The position numbers and the translations under genes were made by a program. A stretch of 39,379 nucleotides of DNA from a virus. Taxonomy: Duplodnaviria; Heunggongvirae; Uroviricota; Caudoviricetes. The DNA is taken from the IMG/VR virus record IMGVR_UViG_2778261458_000007. One strand, given 5' to 3'. This document shows positions 5,160 to 8,616 of this stretch, one piece after another (positions within the stretch are counted from its first letter, which is position 1; every line of letters starts with the position of its first letter). The notes below the pieces were generated by a model. The model did not search any database and was not told the origin of the DNA. It worked only from the letters and a program-made list of their open reading frames with translations.

Positions 5160-5744
5160 TTATTGTTTGTTTTTTTCGTTCTGGTTGATGACAAATTCAA
5201 TGTAACTTTCGATCTTTGCTTTCTCGGTTTCGGGTAACAATGCGTAGCGCGAGCGATCATAGTTGATGGTCGCAGGGTCGTGCGGGTGAATCAGTAATTC
5301 ATAGCCGTGACGCCCGAATGCGGATGCAACATTCTCCAGGGTGGAAATGGAAACGCTGACCTCATTGTTTAACAGGCGGCTGATTGTCACCTGGGCTACG
5401 CCGGATGCGCGGTGAAGTTTTCCCTGTGTTGAAAGGTCGCGGCTTTCGCTCATCCAGCGTTCCAGGTTGTGAGCCGCCAGCTGGCCAATGTCGCTTGGGC
5501 CGACAGGCTGAAAACCTTCCTGAGAAAGCGAGCGATCGATATCAAGCCAGTTACGGGGTTTATTGGCGGCAGCTTCAATTTTTCGTGCAACCTGGTCGCC
5601 GATAACCTTCTTGCCAAGAGCCCAGCGGTTTACCAGATTTGCCTGAGTTCCAAGTTTTTCAGCCATCCGCGTCTGAACACCATTGAATTCACGGTCGATC
5701 AAGTCGTTGAGATTTTGCCTGCGGACGTCCTGGATACTTTTCAT
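5160..5744 (-). CDS. CI-like prophage repressor (tandem HTH, no recognisable S24 peptidase domain)
   Basis: 194-aa ORF divergent from cro-like gene across an operator cluster; two HTH-like segments (QTRMAEKLGTQANLVNRW and GVAQVTISRLLNNE); no Ala-Gly/Ser-Lys cleavage motifs seen. Confidence 0.7.
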   Translation of the reverse strand: MKSIQDVRRQNLNDLIDREFNGVQTRMAEKLGTQANLVNRWALGKKVIGDQVARKIEAAANKPRNWLDIDRSLSQEGFQPVGPSDIGQLAAHNLERWMSESRDLSTQGKLHRASGVAQVTISRLLNNEVSVSISTLENVASAFGRHGYELLIHPHDPATINYDRSRYALLPETEKAKIESYIEFVINQNEKNKQ

Positions 5745-5798
5745 TTTCTGGAAAATCGCCTCATATCTGAATCAGAAGATGATTCAATTTAAAGCAAT

Positions 5799-5815
5799 AT
5801 TACCCAACAGGTAAA
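5799..5815. promoter_or_regulatory. Operator site 3 (OR cluster): ATTACCCAACAGGTAAA
   Basis: In divergent repressor/cro intergenic region. Confidence 0.6.
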
Positions 5816-5832
5816 TGCACCTCATGGGTAAC
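5816..5832. promoter_or_regulatory. Operator site 4 (OR cluster, degenerate): TGCACCTCATGGGTAAC
   Basis: Abuts site 3; right half conserved, left half degenerate; spacer TCATG identical to site 8. Confidence 0.4.
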
Positions 5833-5844
5833 TATCCTTGATTT

Positions 5845-5873
5845 TTGTTACCTTATAGGTGAATATTTATTAT
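5845..5873 (+). promoter_or_regulatory. Rightward early promoter (PR-like)
   Basis: -35 TTGTTA (5845-5850), 17-bp spacer containing operator site 5, -10 TATTAT (5868-5873); cro-like ATG at 5899. Confidence 0.5.
5847..5863. promoter_or_regulatory. Operator site 5 (OR cluster): GTTACCTTATAGGTGAA
   Basis: Lies in the spacer between -35 TTGTTA and -10 TATTAT of the rightward cro promoter. Confidence 0.55.
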
Positions 5874-5898
5874 CTGAAATAAATATCAGGCAATAGCT

Positions 5899-6129
5899 AT
5901 GAGCGATAACGGACATTTCGATTTCAAAAAGCACTGGCTTGCACTTACTCCGGATGAGCGTGAAGCCTTCGCACAGGAAGCCGGAACGACGAGTCACTAT
6001 ATCCAGACTCACTTAACAGGTAAGCGCAAAATGCCAGGTAAGGTATTGATGGATGGGCTTTTTAAAGCCTGTAAATCAAGACAATGGCTGCGCTCAAAAG
6101 CAGAACTGGCATACTTCTTCTACTCATGA
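5899..6129 (+). CDS. Cro-like DNA-binding protein
   Basis: 76-aa ORF divergent from repressor; first gene of rightward early operon; followed by intrinsic terminator. Confidence 0.55.
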   Translation: MSDNGHFDFKKHWLALTPDEREAFAQEAGTTSHYIQTHLTGKRKMPGKVLMDGLFKACKSRQWLRSKAELAYFFYS

Positions 6130-6151
6130 TATCCAGCCACAACCCTCTGTA

Positions 6152-6173
6152 GACCGCCATCCGGCGGTCTTTT
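6152..6173 (+). terminator. Intrinsic terminator after cro-like gene
   Basis: Hairpin GACCGCC-ATCC-GGCGGTC followed by TTTT. Confidence 0.65.
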
Positions 6174-6183
6174 CATATCTATT

Positions 6184-6200
6184 CGTACCTCAAAGGTAAT
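6184..6200. promoter_or_regulatory. Operator site 6: CGTACCTCAAAGGTAAT
   Basis: Immediately after cro terminator, upstream of gene at 6280. Confidence 0.5.
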
Positions 6201-6279
6201 AAAAAACCAAATATGGTTGATCTTTTTTTTGTGTCAGCACAAAATAACCGTAATCCCAATACTAATAACAGGGCTTACC

Positions 6280-6480
6280 ATGGAAATCATTACACGTATT
6301 GATGCCGCAAAGCGCGGACTTAAACGCTACTACACCGGAAAACCATGTAAGCACGGACATGACAGTGAACGCTGGGTTTACAACGGACACTGTGTTGAGT
6401 GCACCATGGAGTCAAACCGTCGCATCAGGGCAGAGATTAAGCAGATCATGATTAATTCCTCCCCACAACACTCAAGCTGA
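6280..6480 (+). CDS. Small Cys/His-rich protein (cII-equivalent position)
   Basis: Start at ATG 6280 (MEIITRIDAAKRG); C-x-H-G-H ... C-V-E-C pattern suggests zinc binding; the ORF-track start at 6217 is a TTG. Confidence 0.45.
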   Translation: MEIITRIDAAKRGLKRYYTGKPCKHGHDSERWVYNGHCVECTMESNRRIRAEIKQIMINSSPQHSS

Positions 6481-6495
6481 TAGCGGAGATTAATC

Positions 6496-7311
6496 ATGAG
6501 CAGACATGCAACAGATTGGGCCTGGGAGACAGATCCAGGTAGCTCATCATTAAAGCTCATACTGCTCTCGATGGCTGACAGAGCCGATGAATATAACCTC
6601 TGCTACCCAAGCATAGAACGCCTCGTTAAAGACACTTGCCTGAATAAAAAAACCGTGCAGGCCGGGCTTATATCGCTCATGAAAATGGGGCTTATTTCAG
6701 ATACCGGAGAGAGAAAGGGAGCGACGAAAAGAGTGCGGGTTTTCTCTCTTAATATAACAAAAAACGGGAACATTAAAGGTAACCGGGAAGGGTGTAATGA
6801 ACCCGAAAACGGTAATGTTACCGAAAACGGGAATATACCCAAAAACGGGATGTTGAATGATCCCAAAAACGGGATGTTGAATGATCCCAAAAACGGGATC
6901 CAGAACCAGTCATATAACCAGTCATTTAACCAAGAGAGGGAGAGCAGGACAAAAAACGGGGATTCTGTGCATCATGACCCCGGCGCAAACAACGCCGTGA
7001 TGAATAACTTTGTTCCTCCTGGTGGGCCAGGGCAATTAGGAAAATTTGTCATGCATGAACAATGGCAGCCATCAGATGACTTTCTTCGGAAAAGCTCATT
7101 GCAGGGGATCTACCTGGACAGTCTGCCAACGGCACAGGAACTTGCAGAGTTCAGAATTTACTGGATGGCTGAGGGTAAGGCATACCATCAGGCACAGTGG
7201 GAGCAGAAGCTGGCAAGGCGGCTGCAGATTAGCAGACAGAAGCAATCAACATTACCTGATAACAACGTTCCGCACTGGAACAGCCCTGAAGCATGGGAGG
7301 ATTTCTTGTGA
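6496..7311 (+). CDS. Replication initiation protein (lambda O-like, iterons embedded)
   Basis: 271-aa ORF with RBS GGAG; N-terminal HTH-like domain; internal AAAACGGGA iteron array coding KNG repeats; followed by coupled P-like gene. Confidence 0.7.
   Translation: MSRHATDWAWETDPGSSSLKLILLSMADRADEYNLCYPSIERLVKDTCLNKKTVQAGLISLMKMGLISDTGERKGATKRVRVFSLNITKNGNIKGNREGCNEPENGNVTENGNIPKNGMLNDPKNGMLNDPKNGIQNQSYNQSFNQERESRTKNGDSVHHDPGANNAVMNNFVPPGGPGQLGKFVMHEQWQPSDDFLRKSSLQGIYLDSLPTAQELAEFRIYWMAEGKAYHQAQWEQKLARRLQISRQKQSTLPDNNVPHWNSPEAWEDFL
6759..6961. repeat. Iteron array (AAAACGG[G/T]A, about 7 copies) within O-like gene, putative replication origin
   Basis: Cores at 6761, 6806, 6824, 6842, 6866, 6890, 6953; three copies are exact 24-bp tandem units CCCAAAAACGGGATGTTGAATGAT (6838-6861, 6862-6885, partial 6886-6903). 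Confidence 0.6.
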
Positions 7312-8093
7312 ACAACGTTTTTACCGCGATACAAAACCGTGACGGAGAAGCCCTTTCTCGCATGTCAGGTTATGAGCATCAGTACACCAACAATGACAAC
7401 GTGGTGAACATGTCAGCAGAGAGGCTTGTTGATGCCCTTTTCAAACAGCTGAAACAACTGTTTCCGGCGGCAGTGGTAACCAACCTGAAGACGCCAGAGC
7501 AGGAAGTTGCTGCAAAACAGCAGTGGATTGCTGCGTTTGCCGAAGGGGGGATCCGAACCCGTGAGCAGGTTTCTGCTGGTATGCGCCACGCCCGCGCCAG
7601 TGAATCTCCGTTCTGGCCGTCGCCTGGGCAATTCATCAAGTGGTGTAAAGACAGCAAGATGGTTCTTGGCGTCACCATTGACGATGTGATGGCGGAGTTT
7701 CACCGGTACAGCAAGGAAAAAAGTTTATATCCTGGTGGTCCCGAAAGATTCCCGTGGCGGCATCCGGTTATGTACTGGGTCGTATGCGATACCCGCCGTG
7801 CAATGTATCAGCGCCAGCTTAGCGAGATTGAGGTTGAGAAACACGCGCGCAGGCTGCTCGATGATTGGGCGAAAAAGGTGGCTTCCGGACAGCAGATACC
7901 CGATCCTGTGATCAGCATACAGGCAAAGCCAGAACCCATGAGTACGCCTCCGGACACAGGGAGAGACGTTTACCACCCGCCAGGGCGAAGTTTCGGGTGC
8001 ATGCCTAACGCCGCCACCCTTGGGGGAATAACACCGGCGCAGTGGCTGATGGAGGAATACAGGCGGGGAAAGGCGGCAGGATTTATCAAGTAA
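7308..8093 (+). CDS. Lambda P-like replication protein (helicase loader)
   Basis: Segment QQWIAAFAEGGIRTREQVSAGMRHARASESPFWPSPGQFIKWCK closely parallels lambda P; GTG start at 7308 with GGGAGGA upstream, overlapping O stop. Confidence 0.8.
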   Translation: MNNVFTAIQNRDGEALSRMSGYEHQYTNNDNVVNMSAERLVDALFKQLKQLFPAAVVTNLKTPEQEVAAKQQWIAAFAEGGIRTREQVSAGMRHARASESPFWPSPGQFIKWCKDSKMVLGVTIDDVMAEFHRYSKEKSLYPGGPERFPWRHPVMYWVVCDTRRAMYQRQLSEIEVEKHARRLLDDWAKKVASGQQIPDPVISIQAKPEPMSTPPDTGRDVYHPPGRSFGCMPNAATLGGITPAQWLMEEYRRGKAAGFIK

Positions 8094-8098
8094 TACCA

Positions 8099-8118
8099 GC
8101 GCGATAGCGCATTTTTTT
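8099..8118 (+). terminator. Weak intrinsic terminator after P-like gene
   Basis: Short GC hairpin GCGC-GATA-GCGC followed by seven T. Confidence 0.4.
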
Positions 8119-8129
8119 ACGTCTAAATG

Positions 8130-8146
8130 GTTACCTGTTAGGTAAT
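8130..8146. promoter_or_regulatory. Operator site 7: GTTACCTGTTAGGTAAT
   Basis: After P-gene terminator, upstream of -35 TTGATT. Confidence 0.55.
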
Positions 8147-8191
8147 AAAATATTCTAAAATCTATTGATTTCGTGTCTTATGTGGTTTTTA

Positions 8192-8208
8192 ATTACCTCA
8201 TGGGTAAA
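8192..8208. promoter_or_regulatory. Operator site 8: ATTACCTCATGGGTAAA
   Basis: Overlaps -10 TTTAAT and ends 2 bp before start codon at 8211. Confidence 0.55.
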
Positions 8209-8210
8209 TC

Positions 8211-8555
8211 ATGAGAAAACAGATACAGGCTCTTGGTCGACTCAAAACAGGCCAGATGAACAAAACAGAATCTGCGTATTGCCAGCACCTTGAGCAGCGT
8301 AAACGTGCAGGGGAAATCGCCTGGTATCGATTCGAGGGTATCAAGCTGCGGTTAGCTGACAACACGTTCTATACGCCAGATTTCGCTGTGATGCTCGCCA
8401 CCGGAGAGATGGAACTGCACGAAGTGAAAGGTTTCTGGACCGACGACGCCAGGGTGAAAACCAAAGTCGCCGCAGATCAGTATCCGTTCCGAATCATCGG
8501 GGTAACGGTTAAGCCAAAGAAAGCAGGTGGTGGCTGGAACATCGAAGAGTTCTGA
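8211..8555 (+). CDS. DUF1064-like protein (putative nuclease)
   Basis: 114-aa ORF; motif pattern resembles DUF1064 phage proteins; start sits immediately after operator site 8. Confidence 0.55.
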   Translation: MRKQIQALGRLKTGQMNKTESAYCQHLEQRKRAGEIAWYRFEGIKLRLADNTFYTPDFAVMLATGEMELHEVKGFWTDDARVKTKVAADQYPFRIIGVTVKPKKAGGGWNIEEF

Positions 8556-8616
8556 ATCGACGATCTTTTTAGTTATCAATGTAATCAATAAGTTATGTGG
8601 ATAAGCGAGGGTAAAG

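What the first reader, a model, noticed from the sequence alone, without database searches (positions are those of the whole stretch)
6759..6961. Iteron array embedded in the O-like replication gene (candidate origin), including exact 24-bp tandem repeats
Seven copies of AAAACGG(G/T)A occur inside the initiator coding sequence, three of them as perfect 24-bp tandem units that encode the repeated peptide NDPKNGML. They are followed by short direct repeats AACCAGTCAT (6914-6933). This mirrors lambda, where ori iterons lie within gene O and are bound by the O protein, so the site, its binding protein and the helicase loader form one compact replicon module.
Basis: partly seen in the sequence, partly recalled or inferred. 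Interest (0 to 1): 0.5.

Follow-up and report, generated by a model that had tools for sequence, protein, structure and literature searches.

The report
Replication-origin iterons inside phage initiator gene
A cluster of short repeats inside the replication-initiator gene of this phiV10-like E. coli phage is very probably the phage's replication origin, built like the classic lambda origin but paired with a different initiator protein, so it is a real feature of a known kind.

Summary
The repeats are real and far above chance. The window is a phiV10-like (Uetakevirus) temperate E. coli phage. Gene 6496-7311 encodes a winged-helix HTH_36 domain, a disordered linker and a DnaT-like C-terminal domain. 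A lambda-P-family helicase-loader gene follows it.

Six same-strand boxes with the core (A/T)(T/A)CCC(A/G)AAAACGGGAT lie in the linker-coding part. They are dyad-symmetric and spaced 45, 18, 18, 24 and 24 bp. Two 12-bp AACCAGTCAT(A/T)T repeats and a purine-rich tract follow.

Comparison shows a DNA element, not a peptide repeat:
- In 76 diverse relatives that share only the N-terminal domain, the same 10-mer is about 340 times enriched right after that domain.
- It lies almost always on the coding strand and occurs in all three reading frames.
- Its outer arms co-vary so that dyad symmetry is kept.
- The box type follows the N-terminal domain even when the C-terminal domain is swapped. Edwardsiella phage GF-2 carries a lambda-O C-terminus.
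- Copy number varies in frame among E. coli prophages.

The lambda-like origin reading is well supported but has no experimental test. Corrections to the finding: six exact copies, not seven; 2.6 perfect 24-bp units, not three; the 12-bp repeats start at 6904. It is a new member of a known kind, of modest interest.

The parts
6496..7311 (+). Replication-initiator ('O-like') gene, 271 aa: winged-helix HTH_36 N-domain, disordered linker, DnaT-like C-domain.
   Evidence: ORF. Pfam HTH_36 at aa 18-67 (E 1.8e-10) and DnaT at aa 184-252 (E 1.1e-15). RefSeq calls the phiV10 orthologue 'replication initiation protein'. The AlphaFold2 model has aa 1-88 at pLDDT >90 and aa 94-211 at <50.
6496..6759 (+). 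Coding region of the N-terminal winged-helix DNA-binding domain (aa 1-88), the presumed iteron reader.
   Evidence: Model shows four helices plus a beta-hairpin wing at high confidence. Fold matches are MarR/Fur/BlaI-type winged helices, all weak (E >= 3e-3). 567 clusters at 50% identity match it at E<=1e-10, and among the 150 best-scoring clusters it lies at or near the N-terminus.
6740..6769 (.). Left-flank low-stability stretch (TTTTCTCTCTTAATATAACAAAAAAC) overlapping iteron 1. An alternative unwinding site.
   Evidence: Nearest-neighbour stability z = 2.1 to 2.7, near the top 1% of the window.
6755..6770 (+). Iteron 1 (TAACAAAAAACGGGAA), the distal box, 45 bp before iteron 2.
   Evidence: Present in nearly all close relatives.
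6800..6815 (+). Iteron 2 (AACCCGAAAACGGTAA), part of the 18-bp unit.
   Evidence: The 18-bp unit occurs in 1 to 5 copies among E. coli prophages.
6818..6833 (+). Iteron 3 (TTACCGAAAACGGGAA), part of the 18-bp unit.
6836..6851 (+). Iteron 4 (TACCCAAAAACGGGAT), first 24-bp unit.
6860..6875 (+). Iteron 5 (ATCCCAAAAACGGGAT), with 5-bp inverted arms ATCCC/GGGAT.
6883..6900 (+). Iteron 6 (GATCCCAAAAACGGGATC), with 6-bp inverted arms. It is the last box before the 12-mers.
6904..6932 (+). Two and a half 12-bp direct repeats AACCAGTCAT(A/T)T, the local version of the family-wide 'CAGAAYCnnnCA' repeats that follow the last iteron. Candidate unwinding region.
   Evidence: Tandem Repeats Finder. Exact copies at 6904 and 6916. 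phiV10 has three copies. The equivalent repeats follow the last iteron in 48 of 76 relatives, in some at 13-nt spacing and therefore in two reading frames. The helix-stability minimum falls 1-32 nt after the last iteron in 33 of 44 relatives. In the window z = 1.45.
6932..6956 (+). Purine-rich tract AAGAGAGGGAGAGCAGGACAAAAAA, the positional counterpart of lambda's A-rich tract.
   Evidence: Sequence. The stretch 6926-6960 is 80% purine. Relatives have A/T-rich tracts here.
6949..6962 (+). Degenerate 'seventh box' ACAAAAAACGGGGA, probably not a working iteron.
   Evidence: It does not match the pattern and varies among close relatives.
7045..7251 (+). Coding region of the DnaT-like C-terminal domain (aa 184-252).
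   Evidence: Pfam PF17948. Matches solved DnaT C-domain chains 9zbt, 6aep, 4ou6 and 4ou7 at E 7e-21 to 2e-19.
7308..8093 (+). Lambda-P-family helicase-loader gene. The GTG start overlaps the initiator stop (GTGA). The longest ORF starts at 7293.
   Evidence: PF06992, E 1.5e-56. ORF. Start placed as in the phiV10 and E. coli RefSeq annotations.

Best explanation
Positions 6755-6900 hold the initiator-binding iterons of the phage's origin for early (theta) replication, embedded in the gene of the protein that binds them. The proposed mechanism has four steps.

(1) Dimers of the winged-helix N-domain bind the six dyad-symmetric boxes, which all lie on one strand. This is inferred.

(2) The A5 tracts and the 18/24-bp spacing (about two helical turns on average) let the array wrap into an O-some-like complex. 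This is inferred by analogy with lambda.

(3) DNA opens in the adjacent 12-mer and purine-rich segment at 6904-6956. The side is inferred from relatives and is ambiguous in this window.

(4) The DnaT-like C-domain, tethered by the flexible linker that the iterons themselves encode, contacts single-stranded DNA and/or the lambda-P-like loader. The loader then delivers host DnaB. This is inferred.

What is shown directly: the repeats are real, they are constrained at the DNA level, they are tied to the N-domain family, and they tolerate in-frame changes of copy number.
For: Repeats and chance:
- 6 hits against 0.55 expected.
- Densest repeat cluster in the window.

DNA-level rather than peptide-level constraint:
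- In 76 diverse loci CC[AG]AAAACGG occurs 121 times in the 360-nt zone after the N-domain and 6 times elsewhere, about 340-fold denser.
- Strand ratio in that zone is 121:1.
- Reading frames are 86/10/25, encoding PKNG, PKTE or QKR. 23 of the 35 loci with the motif use two or more frames.
- CCC is 9% of Pro codons in the window's ORFs but 4 of 4 in the boxes. GGG is 18% of Gly codons but 5 of 6 in the boxes.
- Third-position diversity among 77 distinct E. coli copies is 0.019 in box cores, 0.075 in spacers and 0.048 in the C-terminal part.

Dyad symmetry with co-varying arms across relatives: GATCCC..GGGATC, GTACCG..CGGTAC, GTCCCA..TGGGAC, ACCCCC..GGGGGT.

Box type follows the N-domain:
- GF-2 has this N-domain and these boxes fused to a lambda-O C-terminus (62% identity, E 2e-67).
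- LZ35 pairs them with a DnaB-like helicase gene.
- SPN1S shares only the DnaT-like C-domain and lacks the boxes.
- In 68 of 76 loci the densest repeat cluster lies right after the N-domain.
- 100 of 120 cluster representatives show three or more box-footprint peptides in the linker.

Linker and copy number:
- The linker is predicted disordered.
- Copy number varies in frame, with 4-9 exact-pattern boxes and gene lengths of 792-888 nt.

Context and paradigm:
- A P-family loader gene follows directly.
- There is no DnaA box within 1.7 kb.
- Lambda paradigm: PMC3349717, PMC7466680.
Against: - There is no experimental evidence for this initiator family. None was found in the searched literature, and the records inspected carry no origin feature.
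- The window has no pronounced AT-rich tract next to the last iteron. 6900-6939 is about 42% GC with z = 1.45, and the least stable stretch lies on the other side at 6740-6769.
- The protein is not a Pfam lambda-O family member.
- Binding sites inside a gene could serve control functions rather than initiation.
- The diversity contrast is modest and depends on aligning repeats.
Confidence: 0.8

Rival explanations
1. The repeats are only a coding feature: a slippage-prone, low-complexity Asn/Gly/Pro/Lys linker whose peptide repeats (PKNG...) are what selection sees. The DNA has no cis function.
For: All six boxes in this window are in one reading frame and encode xKNG. The region is a disordered linker. 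Copy number changes by whole codons.
Against: In relatives the same DNA word occurs in all three frames and encodes unrelated peptides (PKNG, PKTE, QKR). Rare CCC and GGG codons are used almost exclusively. Dyad symmetry is kept by co-varying arms. In GF-2 the change of Asn to Ile (AAC to ATT) makes the site more palindromic. The strand ratio is 121:1 and enrichment is about 340-fold.
Confidence: 0.04
2. The boxes are genuine binding sites for the initiator, but their main role is control (autoregulation, titration, handcuffing or exclusion of related phages). Strand opening and helicase loading happen elsewhere in the genome.
For: In lambda, cloned iterons without the AT-rich tract are enough to silence replication of incoming phage (PMC3349717). 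This window lacks a strong AT-rich tract next to the array.
Against: No other repeat cluster of comparable density exists in the 39-kb window. Across relatives the helix-stability minimum lies 1-32 nt after the last box in 33 of 44 loci, as expected for an origin. The array is fixed in place between the initiator's two domains and next to the loader gene.
Confidence: 0.1
3. The repeats act through nucleic-acid structure: hairpins formed between neighbouring box arms (GGGAT..ATCCC), which on the minus strand look like terminators followed by a T-run. They would stop antisense transcription or form cruciforms.
For: Two terminator-like sites on the minus strand at 6889-6870 and 6865-6846.
Against: The number of terminator-like sites in the region (4) is within the shuffle expectation (2.5, sd 1.6). 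The stems are 6 pairs with 3 G-C pairs. The hairpins follow automatically from placing palindromic boxes in tandem. No Rfam family matches. Relatives with 16-18-nt spacing do not keep them.
Confidence: 0.03

Closest known systems
Bacteriophage lambda origin (ori-lambda) within gene O, with the O and P proteins
   Same: - Direct repeats with internal dyad symmetry lie inside the initiator gene, right after the coding region of the winged-helix domain.
- The box sequences look alike: lambda ATCCCTCAAAACGAGGGA against ATCCCAAAAACGGGAT here.
- All boxes are on one strand, with a purine/A-rich segment to their right.
- The encoded peptide is a linker.
- A P-family loader gene overlaps the initiator's stop codon.
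- There are no nearby DnaA boxes.
   Different: - The initiator is not in Pfam Phage_rep_O and BLASTP finds nothing. The profile comparison gives only 73% probability over the HTH and wing.
- The C-domain is DnaT-like, not lambda-O-like.
- There are six boxes at 18/24-bp spacing, against four 18-bp boxes at 20-24 bp.
- A pair of 12-bp repeats replaces lambda's 38-bp AT-rich tract, and the local AT content is only moderate.
Origins of Shiga-toxin phages (933W, P27) with six iterons
   Same: Extra iterons lengthen the initiator in frame (13 more residues) without destroying it, and they are needed for plasmid replication (PMC7466680). In-frame copy-number variation is seen here too.
   Different: Those are true lambda O proteins with lambda-type boxes. 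Here the protein family is different, and copy number varies much more within one species (4-9 exact-pattern boxes).
E. coli DnaT (primosomal protein I, replication restart)
   Same: The C-terminal domain (aa 180-265) matches solved DnaT C-domains, some solved with single-stranded DNA according to my own knowledge of entries 4ou6 and 4ou7 (E about 1e-20).
   Different: DnaT has no sequence-specific winged-helix domain and no iterons, and it works with PriA and PriB at stalled forks. Here the domain is fused to an origin-binding module and paired with a lambda-P-type loader. Only 18 of 109 family representatives carry it.
Iteron-containing plasmid replicons (Rep proteins of F, R6K, pPS10)
   Same: A winged-helix initiator binds tandem same-strand repeats next to an unwinding region. 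The repeats could also serve copy control.
   Different: Plasmid iterons lie outside the rep gene. No Rep_3-type Pfam match is reported for the protein at E<=0.01 or for its N-domain at E<=10. The boxes here are dyad-symmetric, which suggests dimer binding, whereas plasmid iterons are classically bound by Rep monomers (own knowledge).

Membership tests
Lambdoid origin embedded in the initiator gene (ori-lambda type) | Three or more same-strand iterons with internal dyad symmetry inside the initiator gene, between the DNA-binding and C-terminal domains. | tested here: met
   Six boxes at 6755-6900 in the part of the gene encoding aa 88-135. Arms ATCCC/GGGAT and GATCCC/GGGATC. Domains mapped.
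Lambdoid origin embedded in the initiator gene (ori-lambda type) | An AT-rich, easily melted tract directly next to the last iteron. | tested here: inconclusive
   In the window 6900-6939 is about 42% GC with z = 1.45, while the least stable stretch lies left of the array. In relatives the stability minimum is 1-32 nt after the last box in 33 of 44 loci, with AT 0.60-0.72.
Lambdoid origin embedded in the initiator gene (ori-lambda type) | A helicase-loader gene (lambda P family) immediately downstream. | tested here: met
   PF06992, E 1.5e-56, gene 7308/7293-8093.
Lambdoid origin embedded in the initiator gene (ori-lambda type) | Iteron type goes with the initiator's N-terminal domain, not with its C-terminal domain. 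| tested here: met
   GF-2 chimera, LZ35, Her and PPompW, SPN1S as the negative case, and the 76-locus survey.
Lambdoid origin embedded in the initiator gene (ori-lambda type) | The fragment supports replication that depends on the initiator and loader, and the protein footprints the boxes. | not testable with these tools
   Needs cloning, EMSA or footprinting.
Lambda O protein family (Pfam PF04492, Phage_rep_O) | The N-terminal domain matches the family profile. | tested here: not met
   No PF04492 hit even at E<=10, while lambda O itself scores E 5.7e-36. BLASTP finds nothing. hhalign gives 73% probability, E 3e-5, over the HTH and wing only. Remote common ancestry is possible, but membership is not shown.
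HTH_36 (PF13730) winged-helix initiators | Profile match above the gathering score, located at the N-terminus. | tested here: met
   40.9 bits against a cut-off of 25. All 109 representatives scanned match. Winged-helix model with pLDDT >90.
DnaT C-terminal DNA-binding domain (PF17948) | Profile match above the gathering score and similarity to solved DnaT C-domains. | tested here: met
   57.5 bits against a cut-off of 25. PDB chains 9zbt, 6aep and 4ou6 at E about 1e-20. Binding of single-stranded DNA by this protein was not tested.
DnaA-dependent origins (oriC type) | A cluster of DnaA boxes at the origin. | tested here: not met
   TTWTNCACA occurs only at 8596 and 36234, with none near the array.

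The most novel reading that the evidence does not exclude
The window exemplifies a large, apparently uncharacterised origin-and-initiator family spread across phages and prophages of many bacterial groups. A portable cassette, made of an HTH_36 winged helix, CCCAAAAACGGG-type dyad iterons and conserved 'GAAYC' 11-13-mers, is recombined with different helicase-recruiting C-domains: DnaT-like, lambda-O-like and several unknown ones. In the phiV10 version, a domain borrowed from the replication-restart protein DnaT would link origin recognition to a lambda-P-type loader. That would be a route of helicase loading not described for lambda. The GAAYC repeats would be a new kind of unwinding or single-strand recognition element.
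Probability: 0.35. Interest if true: 0.5.

Novelty: new member of a known kind. Interest (0 to 1): 0.3.

Why it matters
- It gives a concrete, testable origin for phiV10-like phages. They are used as O157 reporter and delivery phages, and the gene is present in 424 of 5426 complete E. coli genomes.
- It shows that repeats inside initiator genes can be told apart from mere peptide repeats by frame-independence, codon choice and arm co-variation.
- It defines a box consensus that could annotate origins in hundreds of related prophages.
- It explains why this gene is often truncated or frameshifted in assemblies.
- The principle itself, an origin inside the initiator gene, has been known since lambda, so the conceptual gain is small.

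Tried and rejected
- Inverted-repeat search with a 10-nt minimum found nothing, because the arms are only 5-6 nt. A custom scan replaced it.
- Rfam scan of 5700-8300 gave only a chance-level isrG hit at 7443-7518. An RNA element is rejected.
- Promoter and terminator scans gave counts within the shuffle expectation.
- A DnaA-box search found none near the array.
- BLASTP against lambda O found no similarity.
- The Foldseek PDB search gave only generic winged-helix regulators at E >= 3e-3. It has no value for assigning a family.
- Literature searches for phiV10 or epsilon15 origins and for the box sequence found no description of this origin. The phiV10 and epsilon15 genome papers are not in the searchable library, so prior mention cannot be excluded.
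- The search for homologous proteins with the N-domain profile returned mostly short, truncated database entries. These were of little use for C-terminal architecture. The search of protein representatives was used instead.
- The exact AACCAGTCA word occurs in the linker zone of only 6 of 76 relatives (9 hits there, 9 elsewhere in the loci). Only the degenerate CAGAAYCnnnCA form is general.
- The AlphaFold2 confidence for the C-domain is low because the alignment is shallow there. That domain is assigned from sequence matches only.

Full report
**What the window is.** The O-like gene is 96-99% identical in DNA to Escherichia phages EC.W1-9, phiv142-3, PAS61 and phiV10 (genus Uetakevirus). The same gene sits in prophages of 424 of 5426 complete E. 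coli genomes. The local gene order is:
- repressor, 5160-5744, minus strand;
- small cro-like ORF, 5899-6129;
- terminator-like site, 6151-6170;
- small ORF;
- ORF 6496-7311;
- lambda-P-family gene up to 8093;
- DUF1064 gene.

**Checking the observation.** AAAACGG(G/T)A occurs at 6761, 6806, 6824, 6842, 6866 and 6890, against 0.55 expected in the whole window. Tandem Repeats Finder reports three arrays:
- an 18-bp array at 6794-6848;
- a 24-bp array at 6838-6899, with 2.6 copies at 100% identity;
- a 12-bp array at 6904-6932.

In an unbiased count of near-identical 12-mers, the top-ranked positions of the 39-kb window all lie in 6757-6960. The observation therefore stands, with small corrections.

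**Anatomy.** Read as 16-mers, the boxes are:

| Box | Start | Sequence |
|---|---|---|
| 1 | 6755 | TAACAAAAAACGGGAA |
| 2 | 6800 | AACCCGAAAACGGTAA |
| 3 | 6818 | TTACCGAAAACGGGAA |
| 4 | 6836 | TACCCAAAAACGGGAT |
| 5 | 6860 | ATCCCAAAAACGGGAT |
| 6 | 6883 | GATCCCAAAAACGGGATC (18 nt) |

- All boxes are on the coding strand, spaced 45, 18, 18, 24 and 24 bp.
- The last three have inverted arms of up to 5-6 bp around an A5 tract.
- After them come two 12-mers and a purine-rich tract at 6932-6956.
- The boxes encode residues 88-135.
- An AlphaFold2 model gives a confident winged helix for residues 1-88 (pLDDT >90) and no structure for 94-211 (pLDDT <50).
- Residues 184-252 match the DnaT C-terminal domain in Pfam, and residues 180-265 match solved DnaT structures.

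**Is the constraint on DNA or on peptide?** This is the key question, because in this window all boxes share one frame (xKNG). I collected 80 near-identical E. coli copies and 80 diverse genomic loci that encode the N-terminal domain.
- In 68 of 76 usable diverse loci (Vibrio, Acinetobacter, Pseudoalteromonas, Marinomonas, Providencia, Edwardsiella, Enterobacter, Yersinia, Desulfovibrio, Sphingomonadales and others), the densest repeat cluster of the 3.2-kb locus lies directly after the N-domain. The repeated word is a variant of CC(C/A/G)AAAAxxGG.
- The strict 10-mer CC[AG]AAAACGG occurs 121 times in those 360-nt zones and 6 times everywhere else on both strands. It lies 121:1 on the coding strand.
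- It occurs in all three reading frames (86/10/25), encoding PKNG, PKTE or QKR, often within one gene.
- In the window, CCC is 9% of Pro codons but 4 of 4 in the boxes. GGG is 18% of Gly codons but 5 of 6 in the boxes.
- Across relatives the outer arms change together so that dyad symmetry is kept: GATCCC..GGGATC, GTACCG..CGGTAC, GTCCCA..TGGGAC, ACCCCC..GGGGGT, GTACCAATATTGGTAC.
- Among 77 distinct E. coli copies, third-codon-position diversity is 0.019 in box cores, 0.075 in spacers and 0.048 in the C-terminal part. The 'seventh box' is the most variable site of the region.

Together these results show a DNA element read by a dimeric protein, not a peptide repeat.

**What the boxes travel with.**
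- Edwardsiella phage GF-2 has this N-domain and five such boxes (ATCCCAAAATTGGGAT). Its C-terminal half is 62% identical to lambda O residues 156-299 (E 2e-67), and a P gene follows.
- Acinetobacter phage LZ35 has the N-domain and boxes next to a DnaB-like helicase gene.
- Vibrio phage Her has five perfect 24-bp units.
- Salmonella phage SPN1S, an epsilon15 relative, shares only the DnaT-like C-domain and has no such boxes.
- In a survey of 1.84 billion cluster representatives, 567 clusters match the N-domain at E<=1e-10, and among the 150 best-scoring clusters it lies at or near the N-terminus.
- 100 of 120 full-length representatives show three or more box-footprint peptides in residues 83-210, averaging 4.3 per protein there against 0.16 elsewhere.
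- Only 18 of 109 representatives have the DnaT domain.

This modularity (N-domain with its boxes, C-domain with the loader) is, from my own knowledge, what classical lambdoid hybrid phages showed for O.

**Copy-number variation.** Among close relatives the 18-bp unit occurs 1-5 times, the 24-bp unit 2-5 times and the 12-mer 1-3 times. Gene length runs from 792 to 888 nt, in steps of whole codons (multiples of 6 nt) among apparently intact genes. The protein therefore tolerates changes in the linker. This parallels Stx phages, whose six iterons add 13 residues to O (PMC7466680).

**The unwinding region.**
- In 48 of 76 relatives the last box is followed at once by two or three 'CAGAAYCnnnCA' repeats of 11-13 nt, then an A/T-rich tract.
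- Where the spacing is 13 nt, the two copies fall in different reading frames, again pointing to a DNA element.
- The helix-stability minimum lies 1-32 nt after the last box in 33 of 44 anchored loci.
- In the window itself this segment is only moderately unstable (z = 1.45). The least stable stretch is left of the array at 6740-6769. The side of opening here is therefore inferred from relatives.

**Comparison with lambda.**
- Ori-lambda is four 18-bp iterons plus a 38-bp AT-rich tract inside O (PMC3349717).
- The boxes resemble each other: ATCCCTCAAAACGAGGGA against ATCCCAAAAACGGGAT.
- The proteins do not match by BLASTP or Pfam. A profile-profile comparison aligns the HTH and wing with 73% probability.
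- I therefore treat the window's system as working like ori-lambda with O and P, while not filing the protein in the lambda O family.
- No DnaA box is nearby, no Rfam family matches, and I found no paper describing this origin.

**Verdict.** It is a new, uncharacterised member of a well-known kind of origin. Initiator binding and origin firing remain to be shown experimentally.

Noticed in passing
window 6859, 6883, 6897: Three GATC (Dam) sites fall within 42 bp because they form the arms of iterons 5 and 6. This ties with two other places for the densest GATC cluster in the window. Methylation or SeqA binding could modulate origin use. This is only a hypothesis.
   Followed up: partly
window 6889-6870 and 6865-6846, minus strand: Terminator-like hairpins followed by a T-run, formed by the arms of neighbouring iterons. 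They probably follow automatically from tandem palindromic boxes.
   Followed up: partly
window 6603-6890, minus strand: A 95-aa antisense ORF with the repeated peptide GSFNIPFL. It is a by-product of the repeats. One phage record (YDC107_2) annotates a 'putative membrane protein' on that strand there.
   Followed up: partly
L004 (phage YDC107_2, CP025713.1) 735-996: This copy has several one-base indels in the A-runs of the boxes (A6 instead of A5) and elsewhere. They break the reading frame after 31 codons. This is either a decayed gene or homopolymer sequencing errors.
   Followed up: partly
Proteins P0121-P0240 and P0241-P0360: Many database entries for this initiator, and likewise for lambda O, are fragments of 90-200 aa that end in or just after the iteron-encoded region. 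Some are frameshifted inside it, for example P0131 and P0132. The repeats seem to break short-read assemblies and gene calls.
   Followed up: partly
L002 (Escherichia phage BP9, PP488543.1) 133437-137228: A 138-kb record classified as Vequintavirus, a virulent rV5-like group, carries a phiV10-like repressor, initiator and P module near its end. PH444 (115 kb, unannotated) also carries the gene. These are possibly chimeric assemblies or prophage contamination.
   Followed up: no
window 7308-7311: The P-like gene's annotated GTG start overlaps the initiator's stop codon (GTGA), which suggests translational coupling. The longest ORF instead starts at ATG 7293.
   Followed up: partly
L095-L174, just after the last iteron; window 6899-6932: The conserved 'CAGAAYCnnnCA' repeats of 11-13 nt have no counterpart that I know of in ori-lambda. 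What binds them is unknown. They could play the role of the 13-mers of oriC.
   Followed up: partly
window 8596-8604, minus strand: A perfect DnaA box (TTATCCACA) lies between the DUF1064 gene and the next ORF, 1.7 kb from the array. A single box is within the chance expectation.
   Followed up: no
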